From Pseudonocardiaceae bacterium (GTDB lineage: Bacteria > Actinomycetota > Actinomycetes > Mycobacteriales > Pseudonocardiaceae): a stretch of DNA of 30,304 nt. The notes beneath the pieces are model-generated. The model was not told the origin of the DNA, did no database searches, and was given only the letters and a program-made list of their open reading frames with translations. Within the stretch, counting starts at the first letter, position 1. The number at the start of each line of letters is the position of its first letter. The translations under genes were made by a program, and so were the position numbers. The stretch is taken from positions 1 through 30,304 of the forward strand of contig JBGSWT010000165.1 in NCBI GenBank assembly GCA_041751815.1, read 5' to 3'. This document shows positions 415 through 18,382 of the stretch, piece after piece.

Positions 415-445
415 CCACAGTCTGGGAGTCTTCACACGCTTGTCA

Positions 446-1709: not shown

Positions 1710-1745
1710 GCCGACGAAGGATGACGCCGGAGGCCAGCCGTCGAC

Positions 1746-2723: not shown

Positions 2724-2737
2724 CAAGGGCTCCCCTA

Positions 2738-2894
2738 CGGCGTGTCCCGCAGATCTCACACTTGACACTCACTCTCGGGTTCCCCAACTCAGCAGCAGAG
2801 CTGTCCCGGGCCGACCGAACAACCCTGCTGAGCTCGGGGAGCTGAGAGCGCTCAAGTCGGCCACGGACCCGTCCGTGATCCGCGGGACACGGTC
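2738..2894. mobile_element. 157-bp MITE-like / internally deleted IS (IS5-family-like ends)
   Basis: Terminal inverted repeats CGGCGTGTCCCGCAGATC (2738-2755) and the reverse complement of 2877-2894, GACCGTGTCCCGCGGATC, match 14/18 (14 of the inner 15); TA on both flanks (2736-2737, 2895-2896); no transposase ORF inside. Confidence 0.6.
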
Positions 2895-3031
2895 TAATGC
2901 GAGCGCTCGGCTGGTCTCGATGATGTCGCCGGCACTCAATCAAGGCCGCAACCGATGATTTCTGGCCGACCGCGCGGTCTAACCCGATGTTGCTGCTCCC
3001 ACGACGGAATGCGCACTTCAAGGAGCCACTG

Positions 3032-3616: not shown

Positions 3617-3617
3617 G

Positions 3618-5296: not shown

Positions 5297-5752
5297 TCAA
5301 GGAGCGAGCAGTCGCCGGGGGCCAGCGCCGTACTTGCTCAGCTCGTCGTAGGGATTGGCCATCCGGCAGCGGTCGATGGATAGGCAGCCGCATCCCACAC
5401 AGTCGGTGAAGTCGTCACGGAGCTGCTGGAGATGGCGAATCCGCTGGTCGAGTTCGGCTTGCCAGCACTGGGATATTCGTTGCCAGTCGCGGCGGGTGGG
5501 CGTCCGGCCATCAGGGAGCAGTGCGAGCACCGCGGCGACCTCGGCCAGCGGGATCCCGACTCGCTGGGCGATGCGGATCAGCGCCACCCGCCGAAGGACG
5601 TCCCGCTTGTAGCGGCGCTGGTTGCCCGACGTCCGCCGGCTGCTGATCAGGCCTTGGCGCTCATAGAAGTGCAGCGCCGACACCGCCACACCGCTACGCA
5701 CCGCGAGTTGCCCGACGGTGAGCTCAGCCTGGTCCCACCTGGCTTCCTCCAT
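5297..5752 (-). CDS. soxR: Redox-sensitive transcriptional activator SoxR (MerR family, 2Fe-2S)
   Basis: LTVGQLAVRSGVAVSALHFYERQGLI..RTSGNQRRY HTH and the CVGCGCLSIDRC Cys cluster; real start ATG 5752 lies within the long 5297-6397 ORF. Confidence 0.95.
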   Translation of the reverse strand: MEEARWDQAELTVGQLAVRSGVAVSALHFYERQGLISSRRTSGNQRRYKRDVLRRVALIRIAQRVGIPLAEVAAVLALLPDGRTPTRRDWQRISQCWQAELDQRIRHLQQLRDDFTDCVGCGCLSIDRCRMANPYDELSKYGAGPRRLLAP

Positions 5753-5777
5753 GGCCGCAAACTCCTCACATGTCAAC

Positions 5778-5808
5778 TTGACCTCAACCATAGTTGAGGC
5801 TATAGCGT
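5778..5808 (+). promoter_or_regulatory. SoxR-type promoter with SoxR box
   Basis: -35 TTGACC (5778-5783), 19-bp spacer, -10 TAGCGT (5803-5808); dyad CCTCAAC-CATA-GTTGAGG (5782-5799) resembles the E. coli SoxR site CCTCAAGTTAACTTGAGG. Confidence 0.9.
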
Positions 5809-5815
5809 CACCGCT

Positions 5816-6364
5816 ATGAACCCCACTGGAGCCATGTCTGCGCTCGCGGTCATCGTGGGCAGCATTCGGGAAGGCCGGTTCGGGCCCGTCGTAGCCGACT
5901 GGTTCGTCGGGCAAGCCAAGCAACGCGACGACCTGAGCGTCGACGTCATCGATCTCGCCGACACTCCGATTCCCAGCGTGAGCTTCGCCTCCCGGATCGG
6001 TGCCGCCGACGCGTTCGTCGTCGTCACCCCCGAGTACAACCACGGCTACCCCGGACCGCTGAAGGCCGCGATCGACTCGGTGGGCCGGGAATGGCAGGCC
6101 AAACCGGTCGGCTTCGTCTCCTACGGCGGCCTGTCCGGTGGGCTCCGCGCGGTCGAGCAGCTGCGCATCGTGTTCGCCGAACTCCATACTGTCACCATTC
6201 GAGAGACGGTGAGCTTCCACGGAGCACGCCAGCGGTTCGACGAGCATGGGGCTCCCCGCGATCCCGATGCGGTCAACACCGCCGCCAACGCTCTCCTGAA
6301 CCAGCTGGCCTGGTGGGCGAACGCGCTCCGACATGCCAGAGCGGCTCGCCCCTACGGCACGTGA
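5816..6364 (+). CDS. NAD(P)H-dependent FMN reductase (flavodoxin-like), probable SoxR target
   Basis: GSIREGRFG FMN-binding loop, TPEYNHGYPGPLKAAID, KPVGFVSYGG..GG.RAVEQLR. Confidence 0.9.
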   Translation: MNPTGAMSALAVIVGSIREGRFGPVVADWFVGQAKQRDDLSVDVIDLADTPIPSVSFASRIGAADAFVVVTPEYNHGYPGPLKAAIDSVGREWQAKPVGFVSYGGLSGGLRAVEQLRIVFAELHTVTIRETVSFHGARQRFDEHGAPRDPDAVNTAANALLNQLAWWANALRHARAARPYGT

Positions 6365-6412
6365 TGTAGCCCGCAGCCCGGGCCAACCAGCCAGCATCGG
6401 AGGTACGGATCA

Positions 6413-7108
6413 GTGAAGGTGCTTTTCGTGCACGGTGCTCTGGTCGGCGATGCGCAGTGGTGGTGGCACCGGATGGTCGAACCCCTCACCCGGCGCGGCC
6501 TGTCCACCGGGGCGGTCGTCCTTCCCAGCTGTGAAGGGGCACCCGGCGAACTCGGAGACATGTACGCCGACGCCGCTGCGGTCGTCGACGCGGTGGCCGC
6601 TGCGGAGGGACCGGTCATCTTGTGCGGGCACTCCTACGGCGGCACCGTGATCACCGAAGCCGGCGCAGGTCAACCGAATGTCCGGCATCTGATCTACATC
6701 ACCGCGGTGTTGCCGGAGCTTGGTCAGTCGCTCGCGGACGCTGTCGGCGGCGGGCCAGCTCCCTGGGTGCACCTGCAACCGGACGGCACCGCAGTCCTGT
6801 GCTCCGACCAGTTACGGGAGCTGTTCTTCGCCGACTGCGACGATGACACCTTCACTCAGGCCCTCACCAGAGCTGCCCCGCAGCCCCTGGCGGCATTCGG
6901 GCAGCCGGTGCGTCAGGTGGCCTGGCGTGAGATCTCCTCGACCTTTGTGGTGTGCACCGAGGATCGCGCGATACCAGCGGCCGGCCAACGCGCGCAGTCC
7001 GCGAAGGCCACCCGAACCGTCGAGCTCGCCTGCGGGCACCACCCGTTCCTGTCGCAGCCAGAGGCACTGGCACAGATCATCGCCGACGCGGCTGACGCGC
7101 TGCGCTGA
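6413..7108 (+). CDS. Alpha/beta hydrolase (Abhydrolase_6-like)
   Basis: FVHGA oxyanion motif, GHSYGG nucleophile elbow, EDRAIP acid and C-terminal GHHPFLSQP His. Confidence 0.9.
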   Translation: MKVLFVHGALVGDAQWWWHRMVEPLTRRGLSTGAVVLPSCEGAPGELGDMYADAAAVVDAVAAAEGPVILCGHSYGGTVITEAGAGQPNVRHLIYITAVLPELGQSLADAVGGGPAPWVHLQPDGTAVLCSDQLRELFFADCDDDTFTQALTRAAPQPLAAFGQPVRQVAWREISSTFVVCTEDRAIPAAGQRAQSAKATRTVELACGHHPFLSQPEALAQIIADAADALR

Positions 7109-7142
7109 CGATCGGCAACGGCATCGTGAGGGTTCGCGTGGG

Positions 7143-7436
7143 TTACGATTGTTCCCAGGTCAATACGGTGTTGAGCACATTCAGCGCGTCGCCGGTAGCG
7201 CGGCGTTGGACCAGAGCGCTGCCTGGCACGGCCAATGAAGTTTTTCGCTCGCGCAGCGCATAGCAGCCCCGGCTGAACCCATCGAGATAGACGGTGTCGA
7301 TCCATTCGCCTGTGTGCCGGGTGCCTAGTAGCGCTCCGTCGGGGCCTTCAGCAACGCGCTGGAACTGGAAGCCCTGCACCTTAATGTGGTCGAGCAGCCG
7401 TTTGGCGATCACGAGGTCGGGACCATCGGTTGCCAT
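7143..7436 (-). CDS. Small hypothetical protein divergent from the XRE regulator
   Basis: RBS GGAGG before ATG 7436; 97-aa globular-looking ORF. Confidence 0.6.
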   Translation of the reverse strand: MATDGPDLVIAKRLLDHIKVQGFQFQRVAEGPDGALLGTRHTGEWIDTVYLDGFSRGCYALRERKTSLAVPGSALVQRRATGDALNVLNTVLTWEQS

Positions 7437-7534
7437 AACGAGCCTCCCGTACCTCCGTTGCTGGCTCCGTATGGAGCTGCCCCTGCGTGGTCAGCGACCA
7501 TCGCTTCATCGGTCACCAGGTGCACGATCACCAT
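7409..7534 (-). CDS. Possible 41-aa small protein or remnant (MVIVHLVTDEAM...), absent from the ORF track
   Basis: Strong RBS GAGGAGG upstream of ATG 7534; overlaps the start of 7143-7436. Confidence 0.3.
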   Translation of the reverse strand: MVIVHLVTDEAMVADHAGAAPYGASNGGTGGSLWQPMVPTS

Positions 7535-7696
7535 CTGCGACCCTCCTCCTCGGGTGCGACGCCAACCCCCGCCCGTTCCACGTGTTGGAGGACGACGCTA
7601 CGGCCGACCGGGGACTGCCAGTTGTACGGAATGTGTGACTTGACGTTGGTTACGCTGACACCGACAGCAACCTGCAGCGACCGGAACGGGCGGACC

Positions 7697-8917
7697 ATGG
7701 ACGACCAGGGACCGGCTATCGGCCGGCGGGTCCGTTACTGGCGTAAGCGGCGCAATCTGAACCGCCAGCGGTTCGCCGACATGGTGGGTCGCTCGGCGTC
7801 ATGGGTGGACAAAATTGAAAAAGGTGAGCGCTCTCTATTGCGCCTGCCGATGCTGGAGCGGGTGGCTACAGCTTTGAGCATCGATCCCACAGTGTTGACC
7901 GACAGTTCGGCCGCCCAACGAGCGGCAGACTGCACTGATGCCGTAGAAGTGCGGGCCATTCGGGCAGCACTAGGCCGATACCCGTCCGTTGCTGCACGCG
8001 GTACCGAAAGGCGCCCGGCCAGGCTGAACACCGTGGCCGGGCAGTTGGCCTACGTCGAGCATGCGTGGTCGTCGTCTCATTTCACGGTGGCGTCCCAGCA
8101 CCTGCCGAAGCTGTTGAGCGACGCCCAGGTCGTCGTGCTGACTGCCTCGGCCGCCGACCAGGTGGCAGCCCATCGCGCCCTCGTCGTGACCTACCGCCTG
8201 GCCTCGTCCGTGCTGTTGAAGTTCAACGCCAACGACATCGCGTGGCTTGCAGCGGACCGGGCGATGCATATGGCACTGGCTGTCGACGACACCGTGGCCC
8301 TGGCGCGGGCCACGCGCAGCGTGGCCCGCGCTATGAGCAGCAGCGGCCAGAGGACCGATGCCGTCGCAGTCCTGACGGGTATGGCCGACCTGATGCGGCC
8401 GCAGTTGCCTGCGCAAGAGCTTGGGCTGCGCTCGCTCTACGGCATGCTGTTTCTGGCGGCCTCCATCGCGGCAGCTCATCAGCACGATGCCGCACTAGCC
8501 TTCGCGATGCACCAGGAGGCCGAGGCGGCGGCGGCCCGGATGGGACCGCGCCATGACACACACCAGACTAGTTTCGGCCGAGCCAATGTTGCCCTGCATC
8601 GAGTGGCGGCTCTGGTTCGGTTGCACGAAGGCGGCCGAGCGCTGGACTACGCCCGGGGCATCGACACAGCGCTCGTCGGCATGCTCCCTCCGGAACGGAG
8701 GGCTAACTATCTGCTGGACCTAGTCCAGGCACTCGTCCAAGTGGGTCGCTACTCCGACGCCGTACGGACGTTGAGCGAGGCCGAGCACGTCGCCGCGGAA
8801 GAAGTGCGTTGCCGACCACTTGCGCACGGCTTATTACGGTCACTGGTGGACACAACAAGTGGTGAATCCGGCCGTCTGGCGCGGCAGATGGCGATCCGAG
8901 CAGGTCTGACGGTATGA
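7697..8917 (+). CDS. XRE-family HTH regulator with long helical (TPR-like) C-terminus
   Basis: IGRRVRYWRKRRNLNRQRFADMVGRSASWVDKIEKGER Cro/C1 HTH; start placed at MDDQG (7697); ATGA overlap with the flavoprotein gene. Confidence 0.85.
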   Translation: MDDQGPAIGRRVRYWRKRRNLNRQRFADMVGRSASWVDKIEKGERSLLRLPMLERVATALSIDPTVLTDSSAAQRAADCTDAVEVRAIRAALGRYPSVAARGTERRPARLNTVAGQLAYVEHAWSSSHFTVASQHLPKLLSDAQVVVLTASAADQVAAHRALVVTYRLASSVLLKFNANDIAWLAADRAMHMALAVDDTVALARATRSVARAMSSSGQRTDAVAVLTGMADLMRPQLPAQELGLRSLYGMLFLAASIAAAHQHDAALAFAMHQEAEAAAARMGPRHDTHQTSFGRANVALHRVAALVRLHEGGRALDYARGIDTALVGMLPPERRANYLLDLVQALVQVGRYSDAVRTLSEAEHVAAEEVRCRPLAHGLLRSLVDTTSGESGRLARQMAIRAGLTV

Positions 8918-9444
8918 CCGGGCGGGTGTTGTATCTCGTGATCTGCGCCGCAGGTCCGGCCAGCCGCATTGACGTCATGGTGAATCTAGCGAGGGCGGCG
9001 GGATGGTCGGTCCACTGCCTGGCCACCCCTGCGGCGGTCGAGTACTTCCTGGACGTCCCCGCGCTGACCACGCTGACCGGCCACCCGGTACGCACTACCT
9101 ACCGCACCTCCGAGAATGAACCATTGCCTCGGGCAGACACCATCGTCGTCGCACCAGCAACTTACAACACGATCAACAAATGGGCCGCCGGCATCGCCGA
9201 CAACTACGTGCTCAATCAGCTCGCCGAACTGACCGGGCTCGGCGTGCATACCGTGGTTCTGCCGTTTGTCAACCAGGGGCTGGCAGCCAATCAGGTATTC
9301 GTCCGCAGCGTCGAAGAATTACGCCAGGCAGGCGTGCGCGTCTTGTTCGGGCCAGGAGAATTCGAACCACATCCGCCGCGCACCGGCGGCGCAGTGCTCG
9401 ATACCTACCCGTGGGATCGAGCACTCGCGGCTGCACAAAAATAA
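8914..9444 (+). CDS. Stand-alone flavoprotein (HFCD / PF02441-like fold)
   Basis: LYLVICAAG, ATPAA, ADTIVVAPATYNTINKWAAGIADN and PFVN motifs of the CoaBC/EpiD-type flavoprotein domain. Confidence 0.85.
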   Translation: MTGRVLYLVICAAGPASRIDVMVNLARAAGWSVHCLATPAAVEYFLDVPALTTLTGHPVRTTYRTSENEPLPRADTIVVAPATYNTINKWAAGIADNYVLNQLAELTGLGVHTVVLPFVNQGLAANQVFVRSVEELRQAGVRVLFGPGEFEPHPPRTGGAVLDTYPWDRALAAAQK

Positions 9445-9478
9445 TGCAAGATGGACTGTCCCAGCCCACGCAACACAG

Positions 9479-9594
9479 GCCCGTCGTCGCCCCTAGCTCC
9501 AGCCCCGGCACGGCGGCACCGAGCAGGTGGTCCGCCGCGCCGTCGTCGGTAGGGACGGGCAGTCGACCGGCAATACCGAGGGGTCATGCGTCAT
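9479..9594 (-). pseudogene. Frameshifted, truncated 5' remnant of a peroxiredoxin/redoxin-family gene
   Basis: ATG 9594 reads MTHDPSVLPVD; restoring one C near 9562 gives LPVPTDDGAADHLLGAAVPGLELGATTG, the typical LPxPxDDGAADHL N-terminus of this family; similarity ends at ~9479. Confidence 0.6.
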
Positions 9595-9773
9595 ACCGCC
9601 GATCCTGCCTGCCCCAACGTAGGCTCCGGCGCCATGCATCTGAACCACACCACTTTTCGCATTGGGACGCCCCGGAGGTCGCCGTCCGCTAACTCTCGAT
9701 AGCACTGCGACCGTGCCGAGTGCGCGATCGCGCTCAGCGCCTGAGCCAGAGTCTTGGACCACTTTCGGCCAGG

Positions 9774-11285
9774 TCAACATCGTTGTCTGGCATCGTTCGG
9801 TACGCACGGCAAGCCATCTCCGGACCTCAAGCCGAGCCACTCCACAGCGCCGCTAGATTTTACTAGCAGGATGGCTACCGCTTTGTTCACAGTGTTGCCG
9901 TTCTCGTCCAGTGAGATCCAGCCGCTCGCTCCGGGCACCGCGCCTGCCCCTCGCAGCCCATTGAATTGCTGGATAATCAGGCCAGGACTGTCACCATCTT
10001 CACCGAAAGCGGAACGGATTGCCTTAGTGACAATGACGATAGCGTCATGGCCAATGATCGCAGCTCCGTCATGCATCTGATCACCAGGAAAGAGCCTCAT
10101 ATAGCAACTGTCGCCCTCGCAGGTCTGATCAAGACGAGACATCGATGCCTGCGCAAAGCCCTCTGGCGCACCCGACCACGATCCCGGGTGAGCTTGACTC
10201 GTATATCTCACTGATACCTCGGCCCTACCGGCCGATACTATCAGCGCTTCCTGTAGATCAGGACTGTCCTTGACCTCGGCCGGGAACTCGACGGCATCCG
10301 CTCCAGCCACGATGCGGATCGGCACATCGAAGCACGGGCGATTGGGCACTTCTTTGACCAATTCCACTAGAGCTGGGGTACGGCCAGCGAAGAATATTAC
10401 GTCAGGCTTCTGCACACAAATATCACGTAGAATTGAGCTCATCTGCGTGCCCACGCCACCATTCTTCGAGTTGTATCGACCGTATGGTTTTAGCAACTCG
10501 TGATTCTCGTCAACGAATTTCTCCGCGAACGACTCCCCCAAGGACAAAAGGTAGGCATCCTCTTCGTTTCTGTCCTGTATAAGAAATCCGCGACGGGCAG
10601 TCGACTTCAAAAAGTACGCCACCGCTTTTGCCTGGTCGTTGTTAGTTGGCGCGACCCGCGCGAGGCCTTGTACTCCGCCGGGCACTTTAAGGGCAGTCAG
10701 CGTGTTCCCGGTCAAGCGAGATGCGATCACCGGAACTTTCCTGTACCTGAACTCATCGATCGTCTTTATTGTATCGCTCAGTGTCCGCCCGGTCACCACA
10801 ACAGCGACAAGCCGTTCGGGTGTGTTGACCTTCTCCACTAAGTCCGGGATCACTCTCTTCCATTTGCTCGACCCGTCGCCGTAGTTGGCGACTAAGAGTC
10901 GGATCAGCCGCCCATCGGTCGTCGTCTGATTTGCTAGCAGTTGAGCGACGTGAGCACCTTGTAGCTCATGCCGCACTAATTCCGTCAGTTTGTCGTCCGG
11001 CGACTTCGGCATGGGAACCAGGTAGCCGACGCTGACTACCGCTTGGCCCAAGCTGTCGACGCGCTCGTTCTCGCTGCGGATCTTGTGCAGCACATCCGCC
11101 AGTTCCGGGCTCAGTGTAACCCGCCCGTCCGTGACACCAATGCATTGGCCGTCGACCCAGTCAACGTCAGGTCCACACGTGTACGAAATATTGTAGACCC
11201 AAAAAGTCACACCCGCTACGAGCAACACGCTGATTACGCCAGCAGTCAATTTCACCCATTGGGAAAATTTTCCACGCATAGTCAT
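9774..11285 (-). CDS. Membrane-anchored type-1 periplasmic-binding-fold protein (branched-chain amino-acid-binding-like), no cognate ABC genes nearby
   Basis: N-terminal TM (AGVISVLLVAGVTFWVY), C-x10-CIGVTDG, ELQGAHVAQ, RLLVANYG, ARVAPTNNDQA, PDVIFFAGR and GASGWISLDENGN. Confidence 0.8.
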   Translation of the reverse strand: MTMRGKFSQWVKLTAGVISVLLVAGVTFWVYNISYTCGPDVDWVDGQCIGVTDGRVTLSPELADVLHKIRSENERVDSLGQAVVSVGYLVPMPKSPDDKLTELVRHELQGAHVAQLLANQTTTDGRLIRLLVANYGDGSSKWKRVIPDLVEKVNTPERLVAVVVTGRTLSDTIKTIDEFRYRKVPVIASRLTGNTLTALKVPGGVQGLARVAPTNNDQAKAVAYFLKSTARRGFLIQDRNEEDAYLLSLGESFAEKFVDENHELLKPYGRYNSKNGGVGTQMSSILRDICVQKPDVIFFAGRTPALVELVKEVPNRPCFDVPIRIVAGADAVEFPAEVKDSPDLQEALIVSAGRAEVSVRYTSQAHPGSWSGAPEGFAQASMSRLDQTCEGDSCYMRLFPGDQMHDGAAIIGHDAIVIVTKAIRSAFGEDGDSPGLIIQQFNGLRGAGAVPGASGWISLDENGNTVNKAVAILLVKSSGAVEWLGLRSGDGLPCVPNDARQRC

Positions 11286-11315
11286 CGAGGCCTCACTTGA
11301 CGCACGTAAAAACTG

Positions 11316-13247
11316 TCACCGAGTTTGCCAGCTGCTTTCCCACTGGCTTGAGCAGTCTCGAAATTCTCTCGCCTGTGCATACAGCTTCAGCGCGCCCCGC
11401 AAGGGGTCGCGAGCGAGTTCTTCGAGTTCTTGGGCGATTGCCGGGCACAGAGAGTGGCACGGGTCGCCGAGGGGGTCATTATGTAACTGCAGGGCAGCCA
11501 CCAAGGACTCTTTCACGACGAGCCTGTCATCAGCGTCACCGACCAATAGTCGCCAGTGTTCCTCTGAGCTGCTTCCCCTGGCCGGGTGCGCAAGGGGTGC
11601 CTCGGTGATGATTCGGAGAGTGTCAAACCATCTTTGAGCACCCACGGTCATAAAGAGCTCGCTCAGATACTCAGCTACCGTAACAATTTCTCCGCGTGCC
11701 AGGCAATGGTACATCGCACTTGCCGTGTCACCTCGCTCTTCTGCGCGAACCTGCATTCGCCGGTGCACGTCATTCCAAGTCGGGTCACCCGGCATGGCTG
11801 GAACCGCGAGCAGATGCATTATCGCCCGCCGTGGGAATGGATGTAATATCGGCCGCTGCGCGGAAGAATGCTGCACCCACAGGTCACGCGACCGGAAGTC
11901 CACCATCGTGCTAGCAACTTCGAGAGGTATCCCCCTCAACGCCTCAGCGAGCTCTTCATCTCCGAAGTCGCGCGCCGCAGTGCTACCGATAAGCGCTCTA
12001 CGAACGCTCACCGGCCACTTGCCGATGAGCAGCTGGAGGACGTCGTTAGGGAGTACCGGCCTATTCCCACGATGATCAGTCCATGCGAGAACACCACGGA
12101 CGTCGACATTCTCGGCTCCTACGCTGTGGCGTTGTCGAGAAATCGTTCGTAGTACGAGCCGCAAACCGCCAAGGTGACCGTCAGTAAGCCGCCAGGCGAA
12201 CCGGAACGTTTTGTCCGCTCCGCCCAAGACTCCGGCTACGTCGATGTCGTCTCGGTGCGGCTGGGAACTTCGGGCAGCGAAGTAGTCCACCGCCTCGTCT
12301 AACTTGAGTCCGCGTAGCTCGATGTGATACAGCGCGGTCGACCCGTCGCGGGTATCCCGTTTCGCCCCCCGCTCTTGACCTGCAGTCGGTGCACGAGACG
12401 ATGATGCCGCGACGATCAGCAAGGGATCCCAGTCATGGCGATGAGCTGCGATAAGATCGAGGAATTCGTGCGCCACATCGGTACCAGCGAAATCCAAAAG
12501 GACCAAGCACGTTTTGTCCCTGTCCCATAGGTGCGGAAACCTCGCTGTGCATCCCTCTCGGAGGTCGGCAAGAAATGCGCGGCACAACACCTCATCGACC
12601 TTGGCTAATTGACTATCAGCTTCCGCTTTTGCGAGCGTGACGAGGGCGTCGACTGCGTCACGTTTGCCGAGTTCGTCCCGGTACCAACGCAGGTGGCGAC
12701 CGCCAAGAAGAGGCACCGTCTCGATGACGGCCAACATGGCCTCCACTGCCAAGCTATGCAGTCGGGAGTCTAGTGGTGTTCCGACGAGGTTAATCAGGAC
12801 GGATGCGGTCTCGCGTATAAGATCTTTCAGCAGCGTACGGTCAAGAATGATTCTCTTAATCATCTCCGCCCGCGTCGCCGCCCGGCTGTCAAAGTTGACC
12901 GGTCCTCGGGTCGCCGCCACTCCGAGGAAAAGTCTTGGAAAACGTAGCCAGCCAAAGCGCTCGACCTTTTCGCTTAGATGAAACGCCAGCAGCAGGGCAA
13001 TCTGGTGCGGTCGTTGAATATCCAACGGCTCACCCACGCGGACACACGGCCTACCGGGCTTGAAGCGTGTCTCCAGGTAATCCAACAGTTCAGACTGGCC
13101 GCTGTCCCTCGGGCCACAAAGCCACACGATCCTCATGCCTCGCTTTTTGTGACCGAGGCACTCGTCGACCAGGTTGGAGATCGACCTCCAGCCCTCGAAC
13201 GAACTTGCCCCCGAACGCCGTCGGTCGCTATGCACCTGACTGGCCAT
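11316..13247 (-). CDS. P-loop NTPase-like protein with degenerate Walker A and helical C-terminus (STAND/MalT-like architecture)
   Basis: IVWLCGPRDSGQSELL is GxxxxG(K>Q)S; CLVLLDFAG is Walker-B-like; LTDGHLGGL resembles the STAND GxP-region; AMYHCLARGE helical repeat; RBS GGAG before ATG 13247. Confidence 0.65.
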   Translation of the reverse strand: MASQVHSDRRRSGASSFEGWRSISNLVDECLGHKKRGMRIVWLCGPRDSGQSELLDYLETRFKPGRPCVRVGEPLDIQRPHQIALLLAFHLSEKVERFGWLRFPRLFLGVAATRGPVNFDSRAATRAEMIKRIILDRTLLKDLIRETASVLINLVGTPLDSRLHSLAVEAMLAVIETVPLLGGRHLRWYRDELGKRDAVDALVTLAKAEADSQLAKVDEVLCRAFLADLREGCTARFPHLWDRDKTCLVLLDFAGTDVAHEFLDLIAAHRHDWDPLLIVAASSSRAPTAGQERGAKRDTRDGSTALYHIELRGLKLDEAVDYFAARSSQPHRDDIDVAGVLGGADKTFRFAWRLTDGHLGGLRLVLRTISRQRHSVGAENVDVRGVLAWTDHRGNRPVLPNDVLQLLIGKWPVSVRRALIGSTAARDFGDEELAEALRGIPLEVASTMVDFRSRDLWVQHSSAQRPILHPFPRRAIMHLLAVPAMPGDPTWNDVHRRMQVRAEERGDTASAMYHCLARGEIVTVAEYLSELFMTVGAQRWFDTLRIITEAPLAHPARGSSSEEHWRLLVGDADDRLVVKESLVAALQLHNDPLGDPCHSLCPAIAQELEELARDPLRGALKLYAQAREFRDCSSQWESSWQTR

Positions 13248-13292
13248 ACCCGTTCTCCGTCTACTCGCTTTTTTCGTAAATCGGACGAGCGG

Positions 13293-13481
13293 TCAGCAGC
13301 AGCGGGTGGCCGGTTGGTTCTCAGCGAGCTTACTGCGCCACCGTTCGAATTCGGACGGGGTCATGACCGGCTGGTCTGGATGTAACCGTCGGTGTCGTGC
13401 AAGGTAGTGGTCGTATCGCGATTCCCCGCTGAATTCACGCAGGTACCAGCGGAGTCCACGAAACAGTTCAGCGATGCTCAT
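13293..13481 (-). CDS. ybdD: YbdD/YjiX-family small protein (CstA partner)
   Basis: WYLREFSGESRYDHYLARHRRLHPDQPVMT and C-terminal RCC; overlaps the cstA stop. Confidence 0.85.
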   Translation of the reverse strand: MSIAELFRGLRWYLREFSGESRYDHYLARHRRLHPDQPVMTPSEFERWRSKLAENQPATRCC

Positions 13482-15639
13482 GGGACGCTCCGTTCGCGAC
13501 CGGGCCGGCGCCCGCCAGTGCCCGGCGTTCTTCGTCGGTGGCGATCAACCCAGCCGCCGCAACGATCTTCGACTCAACAAAGGGCGCCTCGGTACTGGGT
13601 AGCCTCACCGACGAGCGCAACGCCCGAACCCACACCCGTGCCGCGTCCACGATCACCACGCTGATCAGTACTGCGAACAGTAGGGACAGCACTCCGCAGA
13701 CGGTGGAGTTCGTGACCACGGCGACCATGTCGTCGCGGTTGTTCGCCGGCGCTATCCACCGGCCCTGTTCCAGGGCGGTTGAGAAGCGCGCAGCCTGCGC
13801 GAAGAATCCCAGCTCAGGGTCCGACGAGAAGATCTTCTGCCAGCTGGCGGTGAGCGTAACCGCTACGACCCAGGTCAGCGGGACGATGGTCACCCAGCCC
13901 CAGCGGGCCCGGCCGCTCTTGATCAGCAGAGTGGTGCATACCGTCAGTGCGACGGCGGCGAGCAGCTGATTAGCAATCCCAAACAAGGGAAAGAGTTGAT
14001 TGATACCGCCGAGCGGGTTGGTCACTCCGGTGTAGAGAAAATAGCCCCACGCCCCGACAACGGCGGTGCTGGTGGCCCACAGCCCAGGCTTCCAGCTCAG
14101 CTGCCCAAGGGGGCGGTAGACGTTGCCGAGAGTGTCCTGCAGCATGAACCGGCCGACCCGAGTTCCGGCGTCCACCGTGGTCAGGATGAATAGCGCCTCG
14201 AACATGATCGCGAAGTGGTACCAGAACGCCTTCAACGCCGCACCACCGAAGACTCCGGCGAAGATCTCCGACATGCCGATGGCGAGCGTCGGTGCCCCAC
14301 CGGTGCGCGCGATCAGGGTGTCTTCCCCCACGGCGGCGGCCGCCCCGGCTAGCGCGTCCGGAGTGATGGTGAAGCCCAGGTTGTTCACCGCGGCCGAGGC
14401 AGACTCGACAGTGGTACCCAGCAGCCCGGCGGGTGCGTTCATCGCGTAGTACAGGCCAGGATCGATGATGGATGCCGCGATCAGCGCCATGATCGCCACG
14501 AATGACTCCATCAGCATGGCGCCGTAGCCGATCATCCGGACTTGGGACTCTTTCTGGATCATCTTCGGTGTGGTGCCCGACGCAATCAGTGAGTGGAAAC
14601 CACTCAGCGCGCCACAGGCGATGACGATGAAAACGAACGGAAACAGTCCACCGGCGAACACCGGCCCGTCGCCAGAGAAAGCGAACTCCGAGAATGCCTG
14701 GTTTTGCAGCACCGGAGCGGCCACCGCCACACTGATCGCGAGGAGCACGATGGTGCCGATCTTCATGAAGGTCGACAGGTAATCCCGGGGAGCCAGCAAC
14801 ATCCATACCGGCAACACTGACGCCGCGAAACCATAAATGATCACACAGATCACCAAGGTCTGCGGGCGCAGGGTGAACGCCCCCGCCCAGCTGGACCCCT
14901 CGACCCAGCCCCCGGCAATGATCGCCAGGAGCAGCAGGCCGACGCCGATCAGGGTTGTTTCGATCACCTTGCCCGGCCGCAGCATGCGCAGGTAATAGCC
15001 CATAAACAGGGCGATCGGAATCGTCATGGCGATGGAGAACGTTCCCCAGGGGGACCTCGCCAACGCGTTCACCACGACCAGCGCCAGCACCGCAAGCAGA
15101 ATAATCATGATTGCGAAGACGGCGATGAGCGCAGCGGCCCCACCGATCGGCCCGATCTCCTCCCGAGCCATCTGGCCCAGGCTGCGGCCGTCGCGACGCA
15201 TGGAGAAAAACAAAGTGATCATGTCCTGCACAGCGCCGGCGAAGATCACCCCAACGACGATCCACAATGTCCCCGGTAGGTACCCCATCTGGGCAGCCAG
15301 CACGGGGCCGACCAGTGGCCCAGCGCCGGCGATCGCGGCGAAGTGGTGACCGAACAGCACCCGACGATCCGTGGGGTGGTAATCGATGCCGTTGTCCAAC
15401 CGCTCGGCAGGGGTAGCCCTGCGGTCGTCCACCTGCAGTACCCGCCGAGCAATGAACCGCGCGTAGAACCGGTAGGCGATCGCGTAGGAGCCGAGTGCCG
15501 CCGCGAGCAGCCAGATCGCCGAGATCCGCTCGCCTCGGGACAGCGCGAGCACCCCCCAAGCGCTCGCGCTGACCACCGCGACGGTCGTCCACATCAGCAC
15601 CGATCTGGTGCTGATTCGCAAGGTCGAGAGGTTGGTCAC
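13468..15639 (-). CDS. cstA: Carbon starvation protein A family transporter (CstA/BtsT-like)
   Basis: VLFGHHFAAIAGAGPLVGPVLAAQMGYLPG, IACGALSGFHSLIASGTTPK, FEALFILTTVDAGTRVGRF; start GTG 15639 overlaps the upstream stop (GTGA). Confidence 0.95.
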   Translation of the reverse strand: MTNLSTLRISTRSVLMWTTVAVVSASAWGVLALSRGERISAIWLLAAALGSYAIAYRFYARFIARRVLQVDDRRATPAERLDNGIDYHPTDRRVLFGHHFAAIAGAGPLVGPVLAAQMGYLPGTLWIVVGVIFAGAVQDMITLFFSMRRDGRSLGQMAREEIGPIGGAAALIAVFAIMIILLAVLALVVVNALARSPWGTFSIAMTIPIALFMGYYLRMLRPGKVIETTLIGVGLLLLAIIAGGWVEGSSWAGAFTLRPQTLVICVIIYGFAASVLPVWMLLAPRDYLSTFMKIGTIVLLAISVAVAAPVLQNQAFSEFAFSGDGPVFAGGLFPFVFIVIACGALSGFHSLIASGTTPKMIQKESQVRMIGYGAMLMESFVAIMALIAASIIDPGLYYAMNAPAGLLGTTVESASAAVNNLGFTITPDALAGAAAAVGEDTLIARTGGAPTLAIGMSEIFAGVFGGAALKAFWYHFAIMFEALFILTTVDAGTRVGRFMLQDTLGNVYRPLGQLSWKPGLWATSTAVVGAWGYFLYTGVTNPLGGINQLFPLFGIANQLLAAVALTVCTTLLIKSGRARWGWVTIVPLTWVVAVTLTASWQKIFSSDPELGFFAQAARFSTALEQGRWIAPANNRDDMVAVVTNSTVCGVLSLLFAVLISVVIVDAARVWVRALRSSVRLPSTEAPFVESKIVAAAGLIATDEERRALAGAGPVANGASHEHR

Positions 15640-15878
15640 GATGAATTCTGCTTGCTCGGGCGCCGGTGGAGGAGGACATAGGCGATCACCATGAGTAACG
15701 GGGTGAGGAGCACCCAGATCGCCTGGTAGGCGTAGAAGTAGGGAAGCCCGAGAATCCGGGGGGTGCCCGCTGCGTAGAGCGGAACGCACAACAGAGCGCC
15801 ACCGGGGGCCAGCAGGCAGGCCCCCGCGATCACCTGCCGCCACACCTCGCGCCGACGCTGCGGCGTCTGCTCTGCCAT
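15636..15878 (-). CDS. DUF3311-family small membrane protein
   Basis: VPLYAAGTPRILGLPYFYAYQAIWVLLT, two TM helices; RBS GGGAG then ATG 15878. Confidence 0.8.
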   Translation of the reverse strand: MAEQTPQRRREVWRQVIAGACLLAPGGALLCVPLYAAGTPRILGLPYFYAYQAIWVLLTPLLMVIAYVLLHRRPSKQNSS

Positions 15879-15925
15879 CGTCGTTACTCCCACGCTCGCC
15901 GAGGCGACTTGTGCTCGGTCGACGT

Positions 15926-15955
15926 GGTATCACCTCAGTGCGGCCCGGGGTTGAC
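15926..15955 (-). promoter_or_regulatory. Putative ECF-sigma promoter for the DUF3311-cstA arm
   Basis: Minus strand reads GTCAACCC-N14-GTGATACC; same spacing as the + strand copy at 15981. Confidence 0.6.
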
Positions 15956-15980
15956 TCTGTTCCCTCGATCAGGTGATACG

Positions 15981-16010
15981 GTCAACCCTTGGTCTGATCA
16001 AAGCGATAAC
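15981..16010 (+). promoter_or_regulatory. Putative ECF-sigma promoter for the symporter-sigma arm
   Basis: Plus strand reads GTCAACCC-N14-GCGATAAC; an AAC-containing -35 is typical of ECF promoters. Confidence 0.6.
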
Positions 16011-16074
16011 CCCACGTTGGCGCTCCGCCATCTTCCGGCACCCAGCCGAGGTAGCGTCGAGTGGAGGTGCTGCG

Positions 16075-17610
16075 ATGGCCGATCCGGTCGCCCTCGCCGC
16101 GTTGGCCGCGGTGTTAGGAGGCACCTCCTCGCTCGCGCTGTCCGCGCGATGGTTCCGTCAGCGCGACAAACTGCCCGCGTTGGAGGGGTGGGCGCTCGCC
16201 GACCGCCAGTTCGGCCCCGTCATCAGCTGGTTCTTGCTTGGCGGCTCGATCTTCACGGCGTACACGTTTGCGGCGGTTCCGGGCTTGGCCTATGGGGCGG
16301 GCGCGCTGGGATTTTTCGCGCTTCCGTACACCATTATGCTCTGTCCCCTGCTGTTCGTACTGCTTCCACGCTTGTGGTCAGTTGCCCGGCAACATGGTCA
16401 TATCACCGTCGCTGACTACGTGCGGGACCGTTACCGCTCGCCAGGTCTGGCCCTCGCGGTGGCGCTCACGGGCATCCTCGCCACCATGCCTTATCTCGCC
16501 CTCCAGTTGCTCGGCATTCGAGCCGTGCTGAACGCAGGAGGGATCTACCCCCGAGGCTTCACCGGCGACCTCATTCTCGTGGCAGTTTTCGCCGTCCTCG
16601 CTGGTGCGACGTATCGAAGCGGCCTGCGCGCCCCGACCGTCATCTCGCTCATCAAAGGTGCTCTGATCTTCGGAGCTGCCTTGGGTGCGGTCGCAACGGT
16701 CCTGATCCAACTCGGCCCGCCAAGCACGATCTTCGACGCGGCGTCAAGCAGGCTTCCGCCAGCCGGTGGAGACGGGTTGCTTCTGGACCCGGGTCTGTAT
16801 ACCGCGTTTGCCAGCCTGGCGCTCGGCTCCGCTCTCGCTCTGCCGATGTATCCGCATGTGCTCACCGCCACGTTCGCCGCCGATGGCCCGGATTCCCTAC
16901 GCCGTGCGACGATCGCGCTGCCAGCATGGACCGCGATCCTCGGCCTTTTCGGGTTTCTCGGGATCGCTGCGCTCGCGGCTGGTGTCGAAGCCCCACTTGG
17001 CAATGCCGAAGCTGCCGTTCCCCTTCTGGTGGCCGACCTGATGCCCAGCATCCTCAGCGGAGCGATCTTCGGTGCGCTCGCCGTCGGCGCACTCGTGCCG
17101 GCCGCCGTGATGTCGGTCGCGGTCGCCACCTTGTTCGTCCGCAATATCTACGTCCCGTACTTCTTCCCCACCGCCACCCCGAAGCACGAGGTGAAGGTCG
17201 CCAGAGTCGTCTCGTTGATTGCGAAAATCGGCGCGCTCGCATTTGTGTTCGGACTGCGCGACCAGGACGCCATCAACCTCCAACTCCTCGGCGGAGTATG
17301 GATCCTGCAGACCTTTCCCGCGGTGGCGATCGGACTTTATAGTACTTGGTTACATGGACGCGCCCTGCTCGTGGGCTGGATGGTGGGCATGATCATCGGA
17401 ACGCAGCTCGTTGTATCGGGCGGATTCTCCTCGCTGGTGAACATCGGCACCGCTCGGTGGCCGATCCACGTCTACGCCGCCCTGCTCGCCCTTATCATTA
17501 ACCTCGCGATCGCCGCGGCACTCACCCCAGTGCTGCGTCGATACGATCTCCGCGGTGGGCTCGACCCGACCGCGACCGACCTGAAACCACCGACGGGTGG
17601 TGTCACATGA
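16075..17610 (+). CDS. Sodium:solute symporter (SLC5/SSS), MctP/YhjB monocarboxylate-permease-like
   Basis: EGWALADRQFGPVISWFLLGGSIFTAYTFAAVPG, ATMPYLALQL, YPHVLT, ALVPAAVMS, INLQLLGGVWILQTFPA; RBS GGAGGT before ATG 16075. Confidence 0.9.
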   Translation: MADPVALAALAAVLGGTSSLALSARWFRQRDKLPALEGWALADRQFGPVISWFLLGGSIFTAYTFAAVPGLAYGAGALGFFALPYTIMLCPLLFVLLPRLWSVARQHGHITVADYVRDRYRSPGLALAVALTGILATMPYLALQLLGIRAVLNAGGIYPRGFTGDLILVAVFAVLAGATYRSGLRAPTVISLIKGALIFGAALGAVATVLIQLGPPSTIFDAASSRLPPAGGDGLLLDPGLYTAFASLALGSALALPMYPHVLTATFAADGPDSLRRATIALPAWTAILGLFGFLGIAALAAGVEAPLGNAEAAVPLLVADLMPSILSGAIFGALAVGALVPAAVMSVAVATLFVRNIYVPYFFPTATPKHEVKVARVVSLIAKIGALAFVFGLRDQDAINLQLLGGVWILQTFPAVAIGLYSTWLHGRALLVGWMVGMIIGTQLVVSGGFSSLVNIGTARWPIHVYAALLALIINLAIAAALTPVLRRYDLRGGLDPTATDLKPPTGGVT

Positions 17611-18104
17611 CCGAGCCAAGCGACCGGGCGCAGGCCGTCGCCACGCTCTACGAGGCCCACCACCAAGAATTGACACGGTACGCGCGCCGGCGCGGAGCAG
17701 ACGATCCCGAAGACATCGCAAGCGAAGCCTTCGATCTGCTTTTGGAAAGTGGCCGAAGAATCGATGCACCTCTGCCGTGGCTGCGCAAGGTGATTCGCAA
17801 TCTGATCTGCAACCGCGTCCGGCGTATCGAACGCGATCGGAAGTTCGCTGTCCTCATAGGGTCGGAGCCCCCAACAGCACCGTCGGCCGAGGACAAAGCC
17901 GCCCTCAGCGAGGATCAACGATCCATGATCAACGCTCTCAAGCAGCTGTCGCCCCGACAGCGGGAGGTACTCGTATTGCGGTTTTATTATGGTCGTTCTG
18001 AAGAAGAGATCGCGGCCGAACTGGGGATCGCGGCAGGAACCGTCAAGAAGCATGCCCACCGCGGAATAGAGAAGCTGAAAAAGACCCTGGAGGGGGAGAA
18101 GTGA
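17607..18104 (+). CDS. ECF RNA polymerase sigma factor (SigE-family-like)
   Basis: Region 2 (PEDIASEAF..WLRKVIRNL) and region 4 (LSPRQREVLVLRFYYGRSEEEIAAELGIAAGTVKKHAHRG); ATGA-coupled to the symporter. Confidence 0.9.
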   Translation: MTEPSDRAQAVATLYEAHHQELTRYARRRGADDPEDIASEAFDLLLESGRRIDAPLPWLRKVIRNLICNRVRRIERDRKFAVLIGSEPPTAPSAEDKAALSEDQRSMINALKQLSPRQREVLVLRFYYGRSEEEIAAELGIAAGTVKKHAHRGIEKLKKTLEGEK

Positions 18105-18382
18105 CCACCGGCGACACCGAACAGCGTCTACGCGACGCCCTTGGCGCGCTCGCCGCCGAGGTTCACCCTGATCCTGGCGCTTACCGCCGGGCCATCACCG
18201 GATGGAAGCGGCGCGAGCGCAAGCGCCGGCTCATCGTTGCGATCCTGAGCGCGCTCATCTTCACGACCGCCGACGTGATCGGCCTCTGGGCGCTCAATCA
18301 AGCCAACTCGAACTCCCACATCATCTTCTCCGACTCATCCACCGTCGAACACCGTCCCATCGGACGCCTTGGCCAACCTTGA
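18101..18382 (+). CDS. Small single-pass membrane protein, putative anti-sigma factor
   Basis: GTGA-coupled to the sigma gene; EQRLRDALGALA helix, basic KRRERKRR stretch, one TM helix, short tail. Confidence 0.65.
   Translation: MTTGDTEQRLRDALGALAAEVHPDPGAYRRAITGWKRRERKRRLIVAILSALIFTTADVIGLWALNQANSNSHIIFSDSSTVEHRPIGRLGQP

What the first reader, a model, noticed from the sequence alone, without database searches (positions are those of the whole stretch)
9774..18382. Divergent 8-gene module: two monocarboxylate-type transporters, ECF sigma/anti-sigma, pseudo-NTPase and an orphan binding protein
Seen: the left arm runs DUF3311 > cstA > ybdD > P-loop protein > PBP (overlaps, then gaps of only 45 and 30 bp, no terminator visible). 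The right arm runs SSS > ECF sigma > small TM protein (ATGA/GTGA couplings). Established: E. coli CstA/BtsT import pyruvate under BtsSR control, Rhizobium MctP imports alanine and monocarboxylates, and SLC5 domains serve as sensors in CbrA/CrbS kinases. Inference: a nutrient-sensing circuit that uses an ECF sigma instead of a two-component system, with the PBP as receptor and the inactive NTPase as scaffold or transducer.
Basis: partly seen in the sequence, partly recalled or inferred. Interest (0 to 1): 0.75.

Follow-up and report, generated by a model that had tools for sequence, protein, structure and literature searches.

The report
Sigma-controlled transporter divergon plus STAND-PBP receptor cassette
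The eight genes are real, but they are two separate units: a conserved, undescribed module in which an ECF sigma/anti-sigma pair sits with two pyruvate-type importers, and an independent two-gene membrane receptor (NLR-like ATPase plus outward-facing binding protein) that landed next to it in this lineage.

Summary
Observation confirmed: all eight ORFs, overlaps and gaps are as described. SSS probably starts at ATG 16075 and cstA at GTG 15639.

Interpretation partly supported.

Unit A (13293-18382) is [DUF3311-]cstA-ybdD divergent from MctP-like symporter > ECF sigma > 93-aa single-pass anti-sigma-like protein. It recurs in 16 of 18 Pseudonocardia-type loci and in three further genomes of the order. 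A promoter-like element GTCAACC-N15-GCAAC(T/C) faces cstA; it is twinned here. None of those loci carries the NTPase or PBP.

Unit B (9774-13247) is a STAND-type NTPase followed by a membrane-anchored type I PBP. This pair recurs in about 20 unrelated genomic contexts and is multi-copy. In at least nine other protein clusters it is one chain, NTPase-TM-PBP. So the two are one transmembrane receptor, but not part of the sigma circuit.

Only the three closest lineages (100, 86 and 72% identity) have Unit B behind ybdD. These copies lack the Walker A lysine, yet dN/dS is 0.24 and 0.10.

Both units appear undescribed, and no expression data exist. The scan has noted symporter-ECF couplings and membrane-spanning STAND receptors on other DNA.

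The parts
9774..11285 (-). Unit B, gene 2: membrane-anchored type I periplasmic-binding-protein-fold ectodomain. 503 aa, N-terminal TM helix about residues 9-35, four conserved Cys.
   Evidence: AlphaFold model pLDDT 90.7. Foldseek: LivK 3td9 E 6.5e-17, TM-score by target 0.82; also mGluR/GluA amino-terminal domains. Homologues carry Peripla_BP_6/ANF_receptor; some are HTH_31-TM-PBP fusions. Invariant or near-invariant C37, C48, C290, C318. dN/dS 0.10 against L021.
11316..13247 (-). Unit B, gene 1: cytoplasmic STAND/AAA+-type NTPase with a C-terminal helical domain. 643 aa. Walker A Lys is Gln and the Walker B second acid is lost in this copy.
   Evidence: Alignment A1. 17 of 28 family members weakly hit AAA_16. 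Model pLDDT 81, pTM 0.82. VIA-align: plant NLRs Z 12.7 and 11.8, PAB2304 11.7, MalT 11.2, CED-4 9.9, Avs3 9.5. Foldseek: CED-4 E 6.9e-4. dN/dS 0.24.
13293..13481 (-). Unit A: ybdD-like small protein (Sel_put/DUF466), 62 aa, overlapping the cstA end by 14 nt.
   Evidence: PF04328 73.5 bits. It follows cstA in 15 of the 18 related loci.
13468..15639 (-). Unit A: CstA-family transporter, 723 aa from GTG 15639.
   Evidence: PF02554 857 bits over the full profile. PRK15015 835 bits, below its equivalog cut-off of 1188. Orthologues 71-84% identical in the related loci.
15636..15878 (-). Unit A: DUF3311 small membrane protein, 80 aa from ATG 15878; its stop overlaps the cstA start.
   Evidence: PF11755 49.1 bits. 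It is coupled to cstA in L021, L067, L073 and L074, but absent from most Pseudonocardia loci.
15928..15955 (-). Promoter-like element GTCAACC-N15-GTGATA pointing into DUF3311-cstA.
   Evidence: The exact pattern has two hits in the window against 0.01 expected. GTCAACC-N15-GCAAC(T/C) is on the cstA strand in 11 distant loci. In the own genome the only intergenic hits are these two.
15981..16008 (+). Second copy, GTCAACC-N15-GCGATA, pointing into SSS-sigma-anti-sigma.
   Evidence: Conserved in L021. A comparable twin copy occurs in L087.
16075..17610 (+). Unit A: MctP-like Na+/solute symporter, 511 aa. The ORF is open from GTG 15973.
   Evidence: PF00474 50.9 bits. NF046076 MctP 508.9 bits, below its cut-off of 625. 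Orthologues 59-75% identical are always followed by the sigma and/or TM gene.
17607..18104 (+). Unit A: ECF sigma factor, 165 aa, ATGA overlap with the SSS stop.
   Evidence: Sigma70_r2 and r4_2. TIGR02937 89.3 bits, above its cut-off of 42.9. SigE-fam_strep 112 bits, below its cut-off.
18101..18382 (+). Unit A: 93-aa single-pass membrane protein, probable anti-sigma factor, GTGA overlap with the sigma stop.
   Evidence: Conserved in all 18 loci and in the loci; alignment A4. All 12 distant N-terminal homologues lie directly after an ECF sigma gene. Complex prediction gave weak support: 0.35 against a best control of 0.00.

Best explanation
The region holds two evolutionary and functional units placed end to end.

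Unit A (13293-18382) is a conserved divergon. One arm is [DUF3311-]CstA-YbdD. The other is an MctP-like Na+/solute symporter translationally coupled to an ECF sigma factor and a 93-aa single-pass membrane protein. A roughly 200-bp spacer carries ECF-style promoter-like elements (GTCAACC, 15 nt, a G-N-N-A-type hexamer), one facing each arm.

Inferred mechanism for Unit A:
- The membrane protein holds the sigma factor through its N-terminal helix.
- A cue read at the membrane releases the sigma factor. The cue is most plausibly the substrate or transport state of the co-translated symporter.
- The sigma factor then drives the CstA-YbdD importer and, in this lineage, its own operon.
- This would be a sigma-based counterpart of the two-component systems (BtsSR, MctSR, RpuSR) that control pyruvate/monocarboxylate importers elsewhere.

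Unit B (9774-13247) is an autonomous two-gene transmembrane receptor. It pairs a cytoplasmic STAND-type NTPase switch with a type I PBP ectodomain on a single TM helix. In other actinobacteria the same two modules form one polypeptide, NTPase-TM-PBP.
- The cassette is patchy, multi-copy and found in unrelated contexts.
- In this lineage it sits behind ybdD and is probably read through from the cstA promoter.
- It has lost its nucleotide-hydrolysis motifs but is still under purifying selection.
- Its ligand and output are unknown.

Shown: gene content, synteny, fusions, folds, motif conservation. Inferred: sigma-promoter pairing, the cue, co-transcription, substrates.
For: Unit A
- The same divergon is present in G050, G103 and G373, with cstA 75-78% identical.
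- Of the 18 loci retrieved with the SSS (Pseudonocardia spinosispora, adelaidensis, zijingensis, kunmingensis, thermophila and others, plus a Catenulisporales MAG), 16 have cstA, 17 have the sigma gene and 18 have the TM gene.
- Genes beyond ybdD differ from locus to locus.
- GTCAACC-N15-GCAAC(T/C) faces cstA in 11 loci with fixed spacing. It is twinned in L087, in the window and in L021.
- The TM protein is conserved (A4).
- Its N-terminal region matches 12 longer proteins in other genomes, and all 12 lie directly after an ECF sigma gene.
- Complex prediction places TM residues 1-20 on sigma region 4. Score 0.35, best control 0.00. The mark was reached by 58 of 80 solved complexes and 2 of 110 mismatched pairs, but at 0.60 or under by only 7 of those 80 and by both mismatches, so this is weak support.
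- CstA plus YbdD import pyruvate in E. coli (PMC5847655). DUF3311-mctP is a pyruvate-induced operon under RpuSR (PMC9100948).

Unit B
- A PBP gene lies directly after the NTPase gene in about 20 of 22 assessable loci, at 25-86% identity, with unrelated flanks.
- Found in 7 of 36 congeners, with up to four loci in one genome, and an own paralogue on contig C894.
- At least nine cluster representatives of 1108-1192 aa are NTPase, then a strongly hydrophobic segment (Kyte-Doolittle up to 2.7), then a PBP homologous to this one, E 1e-18 to 1e-50.
- Folds.
- Other family members carry N-terminal Ser/Thr kinase or REC-LuxR domains.
- Relatives of the PBP are fused to HTH_31.
- Lower GC and GC3.
- cstA was not found in 40 congeners.
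Against: - The pair stays behind ybdD in three lineages down to 72% identity, with short gaps and no visible terminator. A lineage-specific functional recruitment therefore cannot be excluded.
- One paralogue (L055) is translationally coupled to an ECF sigma gene.
- No transcript data exist; no RNA run was listed.
- The sigma-promoter assignment is inference. The -10-like hexamer differs between this lineage (GTGATA/GCGATA) and Pseudonocardia (GCAACT). Most Pseudonocardia loci show no second copy before the SSS.
- One locus (L086) has SSS > TM protein without a sigma gene.
- The TM protein matches no anti-sigma Pfam family.
- Substrates rest on sub-equivalog scores.
Confidence: 0.7

Rival explanations
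1. One reading: all eight genes form one nutrient-sensing circuit. The PBP is the receptor and the inactive NTPase is the scaffold or transducer that feeds the ECF sigma/anti-sigma pair controlling both transporters.
For: - Adjacency is retained in the window, in L021/L022 (86%) and in L091 (72%).
- Gaps are 45 and 30 nt and no terminator is visible.
- All eight genes are under purifying selection.
- One paralogous NTPase is coupled to an ECF sigma gene.
- The copies behind cstA all lack the Walker A lysine.
Against: - Unit A occurs without the pair in 16 of the 18 loci plus G050, G103 and G373.
- The pair occurs without Unit A in about 17 loci.
- GC3 differs.
- Walker A degeneration also occurs in copies unlinked to cstA (P0028, P0031, P0032, P0036).
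- The three lineages that share the arrangement are close kin, so the adjacency can be simple inheritance.
Confidence: 0.1
2. In Unit A the sigma/anti-sigma pair is a generic envelope-stress switch that merely neighbours the transporters. The conserved motif is a housekeeping promoter (its complement reads GGTTGACA, a perfect -35) or a repressor operator.
For: - The conserved 8-mer read towards the SSS contains TTGACA.
- Most Pseudonocardia loci lack a second ECF-like copy before the sigma operon.
- The TM protein matches no curated anti-sigma family.
Against: - Gene order and tight coupling of SSS > sigma > TM persist at 43-45% sigma identity across genera.
- The second element GCAAC(T/C) sits at a fixed 15-nt spacing on the cstA strand. 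That fits a two-box promoter facing cstA, not a lone -35.
- Strong matches to the TM family occur only where the SSS orthologue is present.
Confidence: 0.12
3. Unit B is an NLR-like conflict or defence system, not a nutrient or signal receptor. The STAND protein oligomerises on a phage or competitor cue detected at the surface.
For: - Patchy, multi-copy, fast-diverging, lower-GC distribution.
- One copy lies among nSTAND1-WD40, GT4-conflict and transposase genes.
- The fold is nearest to NLRs, Avs and CED-4.
- A CHAT-TIR cassette lies 3 kb away in this window.
Against: - No toxic effector domain is present.
- No PADLOC family matches.
- Domains fused in relatives are signalling types: Ser/Thr kinase, REC-LuxR, HTH_31.
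- The sensor is a LivK-like small-molecule-binding fold.
Confidence: 0.2

Closest known systems
E. coli CstA-YbdD constitutive pyruvate importer, and BtsT under BtsSR (PMC5847655)
   Same: A full-length CstA-family transporter is followed by an overlapping Sel_put/YbdD gene. Both partners are needed for pyruvate uptake in E. coli.
   Different: - This protein scores below the E. coli equivalog cut-off, so its substrate is untested.
- It is preceded by a DUF3311 gene.
- It faces an ECF sigma operon rather than being under CRP or a two-component system.
Rhizobial DUF3311-mctP operon controlled by MctSR or RpuSR (PMC9100948; Hosie 2002 as cited there)
   Same: An MctP-like SLC5 symporter is associated with a DUF3311 small membrane protein and a dedicated adjacent regulator.
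   Different: - The regulator is an ECF sigma/anti-sigma pair co-transcribed downstream of the symporter.
- DUF3311 is on the opposite strand, coupled to cstA, and is absent from most orthologous loci.
- The MctP score is below the equivalog cut-off.
Transporter-linked regulators: FecA-FecR-FecI cell-surface signalling and the LysP-CadC 'trigger transporter' (from general knowledge, not tested here)
   Same: A membrane regulator with one TM helix is encoded with a transporter whose state could gate it. The output is transcription of uptake genes.
   Different: - No TonB-dependent receptor and no FecR domain are present.
- The anti-sigma is only 93 aa with an extracytoplasmic tail of about 27 aa.
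- Any contact with the symporter is hypothetical.
STAND NTPases (MalT, Apaf-1/CED-4, plant NLRs, Avs) and the membrane-spanning nSTAND-type receptors noted elsewhere in this scan
   Same: A P-loop NOD module plus a helical C-terminal domain (Z 9.5-12.7). In fused relatives a single TM helix places the sensor outside the cell.
   Different: - The sensor is a LivK-type PBP, not TPR, WD40, LRR or lectin.
- Here it is split into two genes.
- There is no effector domain.
- The Walker A lysine is lost in this copy.
- A helical insert of about 130 aa lies between Walker A and Walker B.
- PMC8195603 does not mention PBP or periplasmic sensors.
LivJ/LivK-type substrate-binding proteins of ABC importers
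   Same: The type I PBP fold (TM-score 0.82 to LivK).
   Different: - It is anchored by a TM helix and has four conserved Cys.
- No permease or ABC ATPase genes lie nearby.
- It is always paired with, or fused to, a cytoplasmic NTPase or HTH_31 module.

Membership tests
ECF (group 4) sigma factors | Only sigma regions 2 and 4 are present, the protein is small, and it scores above the family threshold. | tested here: met
   165 aa. Sigma70_r2 31.6 and r4_2 63.2 bits. TIGR02937 89.3 bits against a cut-off of 42.9.
ECF sigma, SigE-family (Streptomyces) subfamily TIGR02983 | Score above the subfamily cut-off. | tested here: not met
   112.3 bits against a cut-off of 141.55. It is the best-scoring subfamily, but no formal ECF group was assigned.
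Anti-sigma factors | A recognised anti-sigma domain (zf-HC2/ZAS, RskA and similar). | tested here: not met
   No Pfam or NCBIfam hit. The protein has no Cys, so no ZAS motif is possible.
Anti-sigma factors | Encoded directly after its sigma gene, with a cytoplasmic N-terminus that binds sigma and a TM helix. | tested here: inconclusive
   - 4-nt overlap with the sigma gene, conserved in most loci.
- All 12 distant N-terminal homologues follow ECF sigma genes.
- Predicted complex gave weak support, 0.35 against 0.00.
- L086 lacks the sigma gene.
- Binding has not been measured.
CstA family (PF02554) | Full-length match above the gathering score. | tested here: met
   857 bits, profile positions 1-560 of 560.
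E. coli CstA pyruvate/H+ symporter equivalog (PRK15015) | Score above the equivalog cut-off. | tested here: not met
   835.5 bits against a cut-off of 1188. The substrate is not established.
MctP monocarboxylate permease equivalog (NF046076) | Score above the equivalog cut-off. | tested here: not met
   508.9 bits against a cut-off of 625. It is an SSF member (PF00474, 50.9 against 22.8). 'MctP-like' is a resemblance only.
MctP-type operon | A DUF3311 gene immediately upstream on the same strand. | tested here: not met
   DUF3311 is on the opposite strand, coupled to cstA. The congeners' paralogous SSS genes do have the canonical order.
Type I periplasmic binding protein (Peripla_BP_6 / LIVBP fold) | Two Rossmann-like lobes with a hinge; a sequence or fold match. 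| tested here: met
   The Pfam match is sub-threshold for this copy (19.9) but above threshold in relatives. Fold match: LivK E 6.5e-17, TM-score by target 0.82.
ABC-importer substrate-binding protein | Encoded with its permease and ATPase; signal peptide or lipobox. | tested here: not met
   No ABC genes were found in the ORFs scanned either side of the module. None lies beside the pair in other loci. It has an uncleaved-type TM helix instead.
STAND NTPases | A P-loop NOD (NBD-HD-WHD) followed by a sensor-like helical or repeat domain. | tested here: met
   VIA-align Z 12.7 (WRR4A), 11.8, 11.2 (MalT), 9.9 (CED-4), 9.5 (Avs3). AAA_16 in 17 of 28 relatives.
STAND NTPases | Intact Walker A GxxxxGK[ST] and Walker B hhhhD[DE]. 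| tested here: not met
   This copy has GPRDSGQS and LLDFAG. The family consensus is intact.
Known anti-phage defence systems (PADLOC 2.0) | A match to a defence-system protein model. | tested here: not met
   No hit for either protein. A distant homologue has only P-loop-level hits.

The most novel reading that the evidence does not exclude
Two undescribed signalling devices lie side by side.
(a) A transporter-coupled ECF switch: the 93-aa anti-sigma reads the transport state of the co-translated MctP-like symporter within the membrane, through its conserved TM/juxtamembrane GLWAL...HVIFSD segment, and releases the sigma factor to induce CstA-YbdD.
(b) A split transmembrane NLR-like receptor whose extracellular sensor is a small-molecule-binding PBP. 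In this lineage it has been captured into the sigma-controlled cstA operon as a nucleotide-independent variant.
Probability: 0.2. Interest if true: 0.7.

Novelty: new variant of a known kind. Interest (0 to 1): 0.5.

Why it matters
Control of pyruvate/monocarboxylate importers is known only through two-component systems and CRP. A conserved ECF sigma/anti-sigma pair co-translated with a symporter and facing cstA-ybdD would be a different wiring. It is testable in cultured Pseudonocardia strains.

The STAND-TM-PBP family has about 550 clusters at 50% identity with E of 1e-30 or better. It adds a small-molecule-type ectodomain to the emerging class of membrane-spanning NLR-like receptors. It also offers natural split and fused forms, and Walker-intact and Walker-degenerate forms, for dissecting how a STAND switch is driven from outside the cell.

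For annotation, the result warns against reading tight co-directional spacing as proof of one module.

Tried and rejected
- The open frames of 1190-1316 aa reported looked like NTPase-PBP fusions in congeners. They are two ORFs in one frame separated by a single stop. True fusions were found only later, in other clusters.
- The exact twin motif GTCAACCC-N14-GYGATA was sought in distant loci and is not conserved as such. It was replaced by the looser GTCAACC-N15-GCAAC(T/C).
- A third own-genome hit (C724) lies inside a coding region on the opposite strand and is taken as chance.
- The N-terminal extension of the sigma-coupled paralogue P0010 shows no similarity to the anti-sigma family (hhalign probability 0.2%).
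- PADLOC gave no hit.
- Profile search of the NTPase family against the PDB gave P-loop-level hits only.
- An 'alanine dehydrogenase' neighbour in L022 looked relevant to MctP. From its sequence it is more probably a PntAA-like transhydrogenase subunit, and it lies on different sides of the module in different lineages.
- No RNA sequencing run was listed, so co-transcription could not be tested.
- Literature searches for ECF with CstA or a symporter, and for STAND with PBP, found nothing relevant.

Full report
**Observation.**
- CstA: 857 bits, full-length match.
- YbdD/Sel_put: 73.5 bits.
- DUF3311: 49.1 bits.
- SSF symporter: best NCBIfam hit is MctP at 508.9 bits, below its equivalog cut-off of 625.
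- ECF sigma factor: TIGR02937 89.3 bits against a cut-off of 42.9.
- The 643-aa and 93-aa proteins have no Pfam hit.
- The 503-aa protein has only a sub-threshold Peripla_BP_6 hit.

Reading the DNA confirms the junctions:
- GTGA overlap of DUF3311 and cstA at 15636-15639, so cstA starts at 15639.
- 14-nt overlap of cstA and ybdD.
- Gaps of 45 and 30 nt, each with a ribosome site.
- ATGA and GTGA overlaps on the plus arm.

The symporter most likely starts at ATG 16075. No terminator-like site falls at a junction.

**Provenance.**
The window is contig C165 of a 66%-complete MAG with 927 contigs. Named protein homologues point to Pseudonocardiales/Pseudonocardiaceae.

**Is it one module? Unit B.**
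I searched each part separately. The NTPase was found in only 7 of 36 congeners, often in several copies. The own genome has a 26%-identical paralogue on another contig.
- In those loci a PBP homologue lies directly downstream in 11 of 13 assessable cases. None has cstA or ybdD beside it.
- Metagenomic and isolate contigs add nine more pairs. Their flanks are aroK and fatty-acid synthesis genes, Cpn60, MFS/IclR, PadR, a SARP-NB-ARC regulator, or conflict-type genes with a transposase.
- Only the closest relatives keep the pair behind ybdD: L021/L022 at 86% and L091 at 72%.

**Is it one module? Unit A.**
cstA was not found in 40 other genomes of the genus. The window-type symporter was found in one congener, plus a fragment in a second. 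The other congeners carry a 45-50% paralogue in the canonical DUF3311 > SSS order, without a sigma gene.

Outside the genus, the six-gene arrangement ybdD < cstA (< DUF3311) <> SSS > sigma > TM is present in G050, G103 and G373. In the 18 loci retrieved with the symporter, mostly named Pseudonocardia species, 16 have cstA, 17 have the sigma gene and all 18 have the TM gene. None has the NTPase or PBP within 6 kb. What lies beyond ybdD varies: a siderophore-interacting protein, an SDR, an acyl-CoA dehydrogenase, or unknowns.

Variants show how the unit flexes:
- G168 has DUF3311 > a second SSS in place of cstA.
- G029 has DUF3311 but no cstA.
- L086 has SSS > TM protein without a sigma gene.
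- Most Pseudonocardia loci have no room for DUF3311.

**Unit A mechanism.**
A lead from another note of this scan was a twin motif in the spacer, and I tested it.
- The exact pattern occurs twice in the window against 0.01 expected.
- The copy facing the SSS is conserved in L021. In the copy facing cstA only the GTCAACC box is kept there.
- In distant loci the conserved form is GTCAACC-N15-GCAAC(T/C) on the cstA strand in 11 loci. L087 has a second copy facing the SSS.
- In the own genome the only intergenic hits are the two in this spacer.

The 93-aa protein is strongly conserved in three places: an N-terminal helix, an Arg-rich stop-transfer, a TM helix ending in GLWAL, and a short outside tail with HVIFSD. 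A profile of it hits strongly only where the symporter orthologue exists. It hits weakly the N-termini of 12 longer proteins, and every one of those sits directly after an ECF sigma gene.

A complex prediction gave weak support. The score was 0.35 and the best control 0.00. The mark was reached by 58 of 80 solved complexes and 2 of 110 mismatches, but at 0.60 or under by only 7 of those 80 and by both mismatches. The model places residues 1-20 on sigma region 4.

I therefore read it as an anti-sigma factor, while noting that it matches no curated anti-sigma family. By homology, CstA-YbdD and MctP are pyruvate/monocarboxylate importers (PMC5847655, PMC9100948). Both proteins score below the equivalog thresholds, so substrates remain inference. 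That the symporter itself supplies the cue is speculation. It rests on translational coupling, the conserved TM segment, and L086.

**Unit B nature.**
The family consensus has canonical Walker A and B motifs. The window copy and its two nearest relatives have Gln for the Walker A Lys and altered Walker B motifs. A few unrelated members are also degenerate.

Fold evidence for the NTPase:
- The model (pLDDT 81) aligns best to plant NLRs, an archaeal Walker ATPase, ORC/Cdc6, MalT, CED-4 and Avs3, with Z 9.5-12.7.
- 17 of 28 relatives weakly hit AAA_16.

Fold evidence for the PBP: the model (pLDDT 90.7) is a LivK-type type I PBP behind one TM helix, with four conserved Cys.

A profile search found 547 cluster representatives at E of 1e-30 or better. 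Among the top 150:
- At least nine proteins of 1108-1192 aa have the order NTPase, a strongly hydrophobic segment, then a PBP homologous to this one. This is a Rosetta-stone fusion. It fixes the topology and shows that the two genes make one transmembrane receptor.
- Other members carry N-terminal Ser/Thr kinase, REC-LuxR or pentapeptide modules.
- Relatives of the PBP are fused to HTH_31.

These partners are of signalling type. No defence model matches. Both genes are under purifying selection against L021, with dN/dS 0.24 and 0.10.

**Comparison and novelty.**
I found no paper linking an ECF sigma factor with CstA or an SLC5 symporter. I found none describing a STAND-PBP receptor. The main STAND survey I checked does not mention PBP or periplasmic sensors.

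Earlier notes of this scan report symporter-ECF and ECF-CstA couplings, and several membrane-spanning STAND receptors, on other DNA. I did not test those.

**Unpublished data.**
G007, G010 and G036 are flagged unpublished.
- They contribute to the tallies.
- They supplied three of the canonical DUF3311 > SSS examples.
- G010 supplied one of the two loci where the PBP is not downstream.
No conclusion depends on them.

**Verdict.**
The find is a moderately interesting new variant, not a single eight-gene circuit.

Noticed in passing
window 7487-9444 (+): An HTH_31 protein (476 aa, long unassigned C-terminal region) overlaps by 4 nt a flavoprotein-family gene (176 aa). The pair sits between the PBP gene and the conserved Abhydrolase_6/MerR genes. 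The 86% relative has a VTT/DedA-type gene at this spot instead, so this is a variable insertion point.
   Followed up: partly
L055 4347-7219 (= G001:C83): A 48%-identical NTPase paralogue with an N-terminal extension of about 100 aa is translationally coupled (4-nt overlap) to an ECF sigma gene and has no PBP downstream. The extension does not resemble the anti-sigma family.
   Followed up: partly
L086 5881-7886: In Pseudonocardia sp. TRM90224 a second copy of the unit has SSS followed after 99 nt by the TM protein, with no sigma gene and no cstA. This hints that the small protein is tied to the symporter as much as to the sigma factor.
   Followed up: partly
L070 (G168:C2) 5646-10318: The arm divergent from SSS > sigma > TM carries DUF3311 and a second SSS instead of cstA-ybdD, so the divergent arm is exchangeable between importer types.
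   Followed up: no
L021 1508-1571: In the 86% relative the sigma reading frame has an in-frame stop at codon 9 of the window-type start. There the sigma gene must start later (called as 144 aa), and the ATGA overlap with the SSS is not conserved as coding.
   Followed up: no
window 11316-13247, residues about 104-233 of the NTPase: An all-helical insert of about 130 aa lies between Walker A and Walker B. It contains the most hydrophobic segment of the protein in most of the family members checked (Kyte-Doolittle 1.2-1.7, with two conserved acidic residues) and has low model confidence. It is reminiscent of KAP NTPases with membrane segments inside the P-loop domain. This is speculative.
   Followed up: partly
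P0180, P0198, P0096: Members of the NTPase family carry an N-terminal Ser/Thr protein kinase, a REC plus LuxR-type HTH, or pentapeptide repeats. These are candidate output modules for the family.
   Followed up: no
L022 167-1192; L072; L078-L084 about 600-1650: An AlaDh_PNT-domain gene (probably PntAA-like) neighbours the six-gene unit in several lineages, but on different sides of it.
   Followed up: no
L091 2570-4074: The PBP gene of the 72% relative is split by a frameshift near residue 425. This is either an assembly error or decay of that copy.
   Followed up: no
G000:C894 (L002) 1-3617: The genome's own second NTPase > PBP cassette (26% and 37% identity). A 146-aa ORF of no known family overlaps the NTPase start by 4 nt.
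   Followed up: partly
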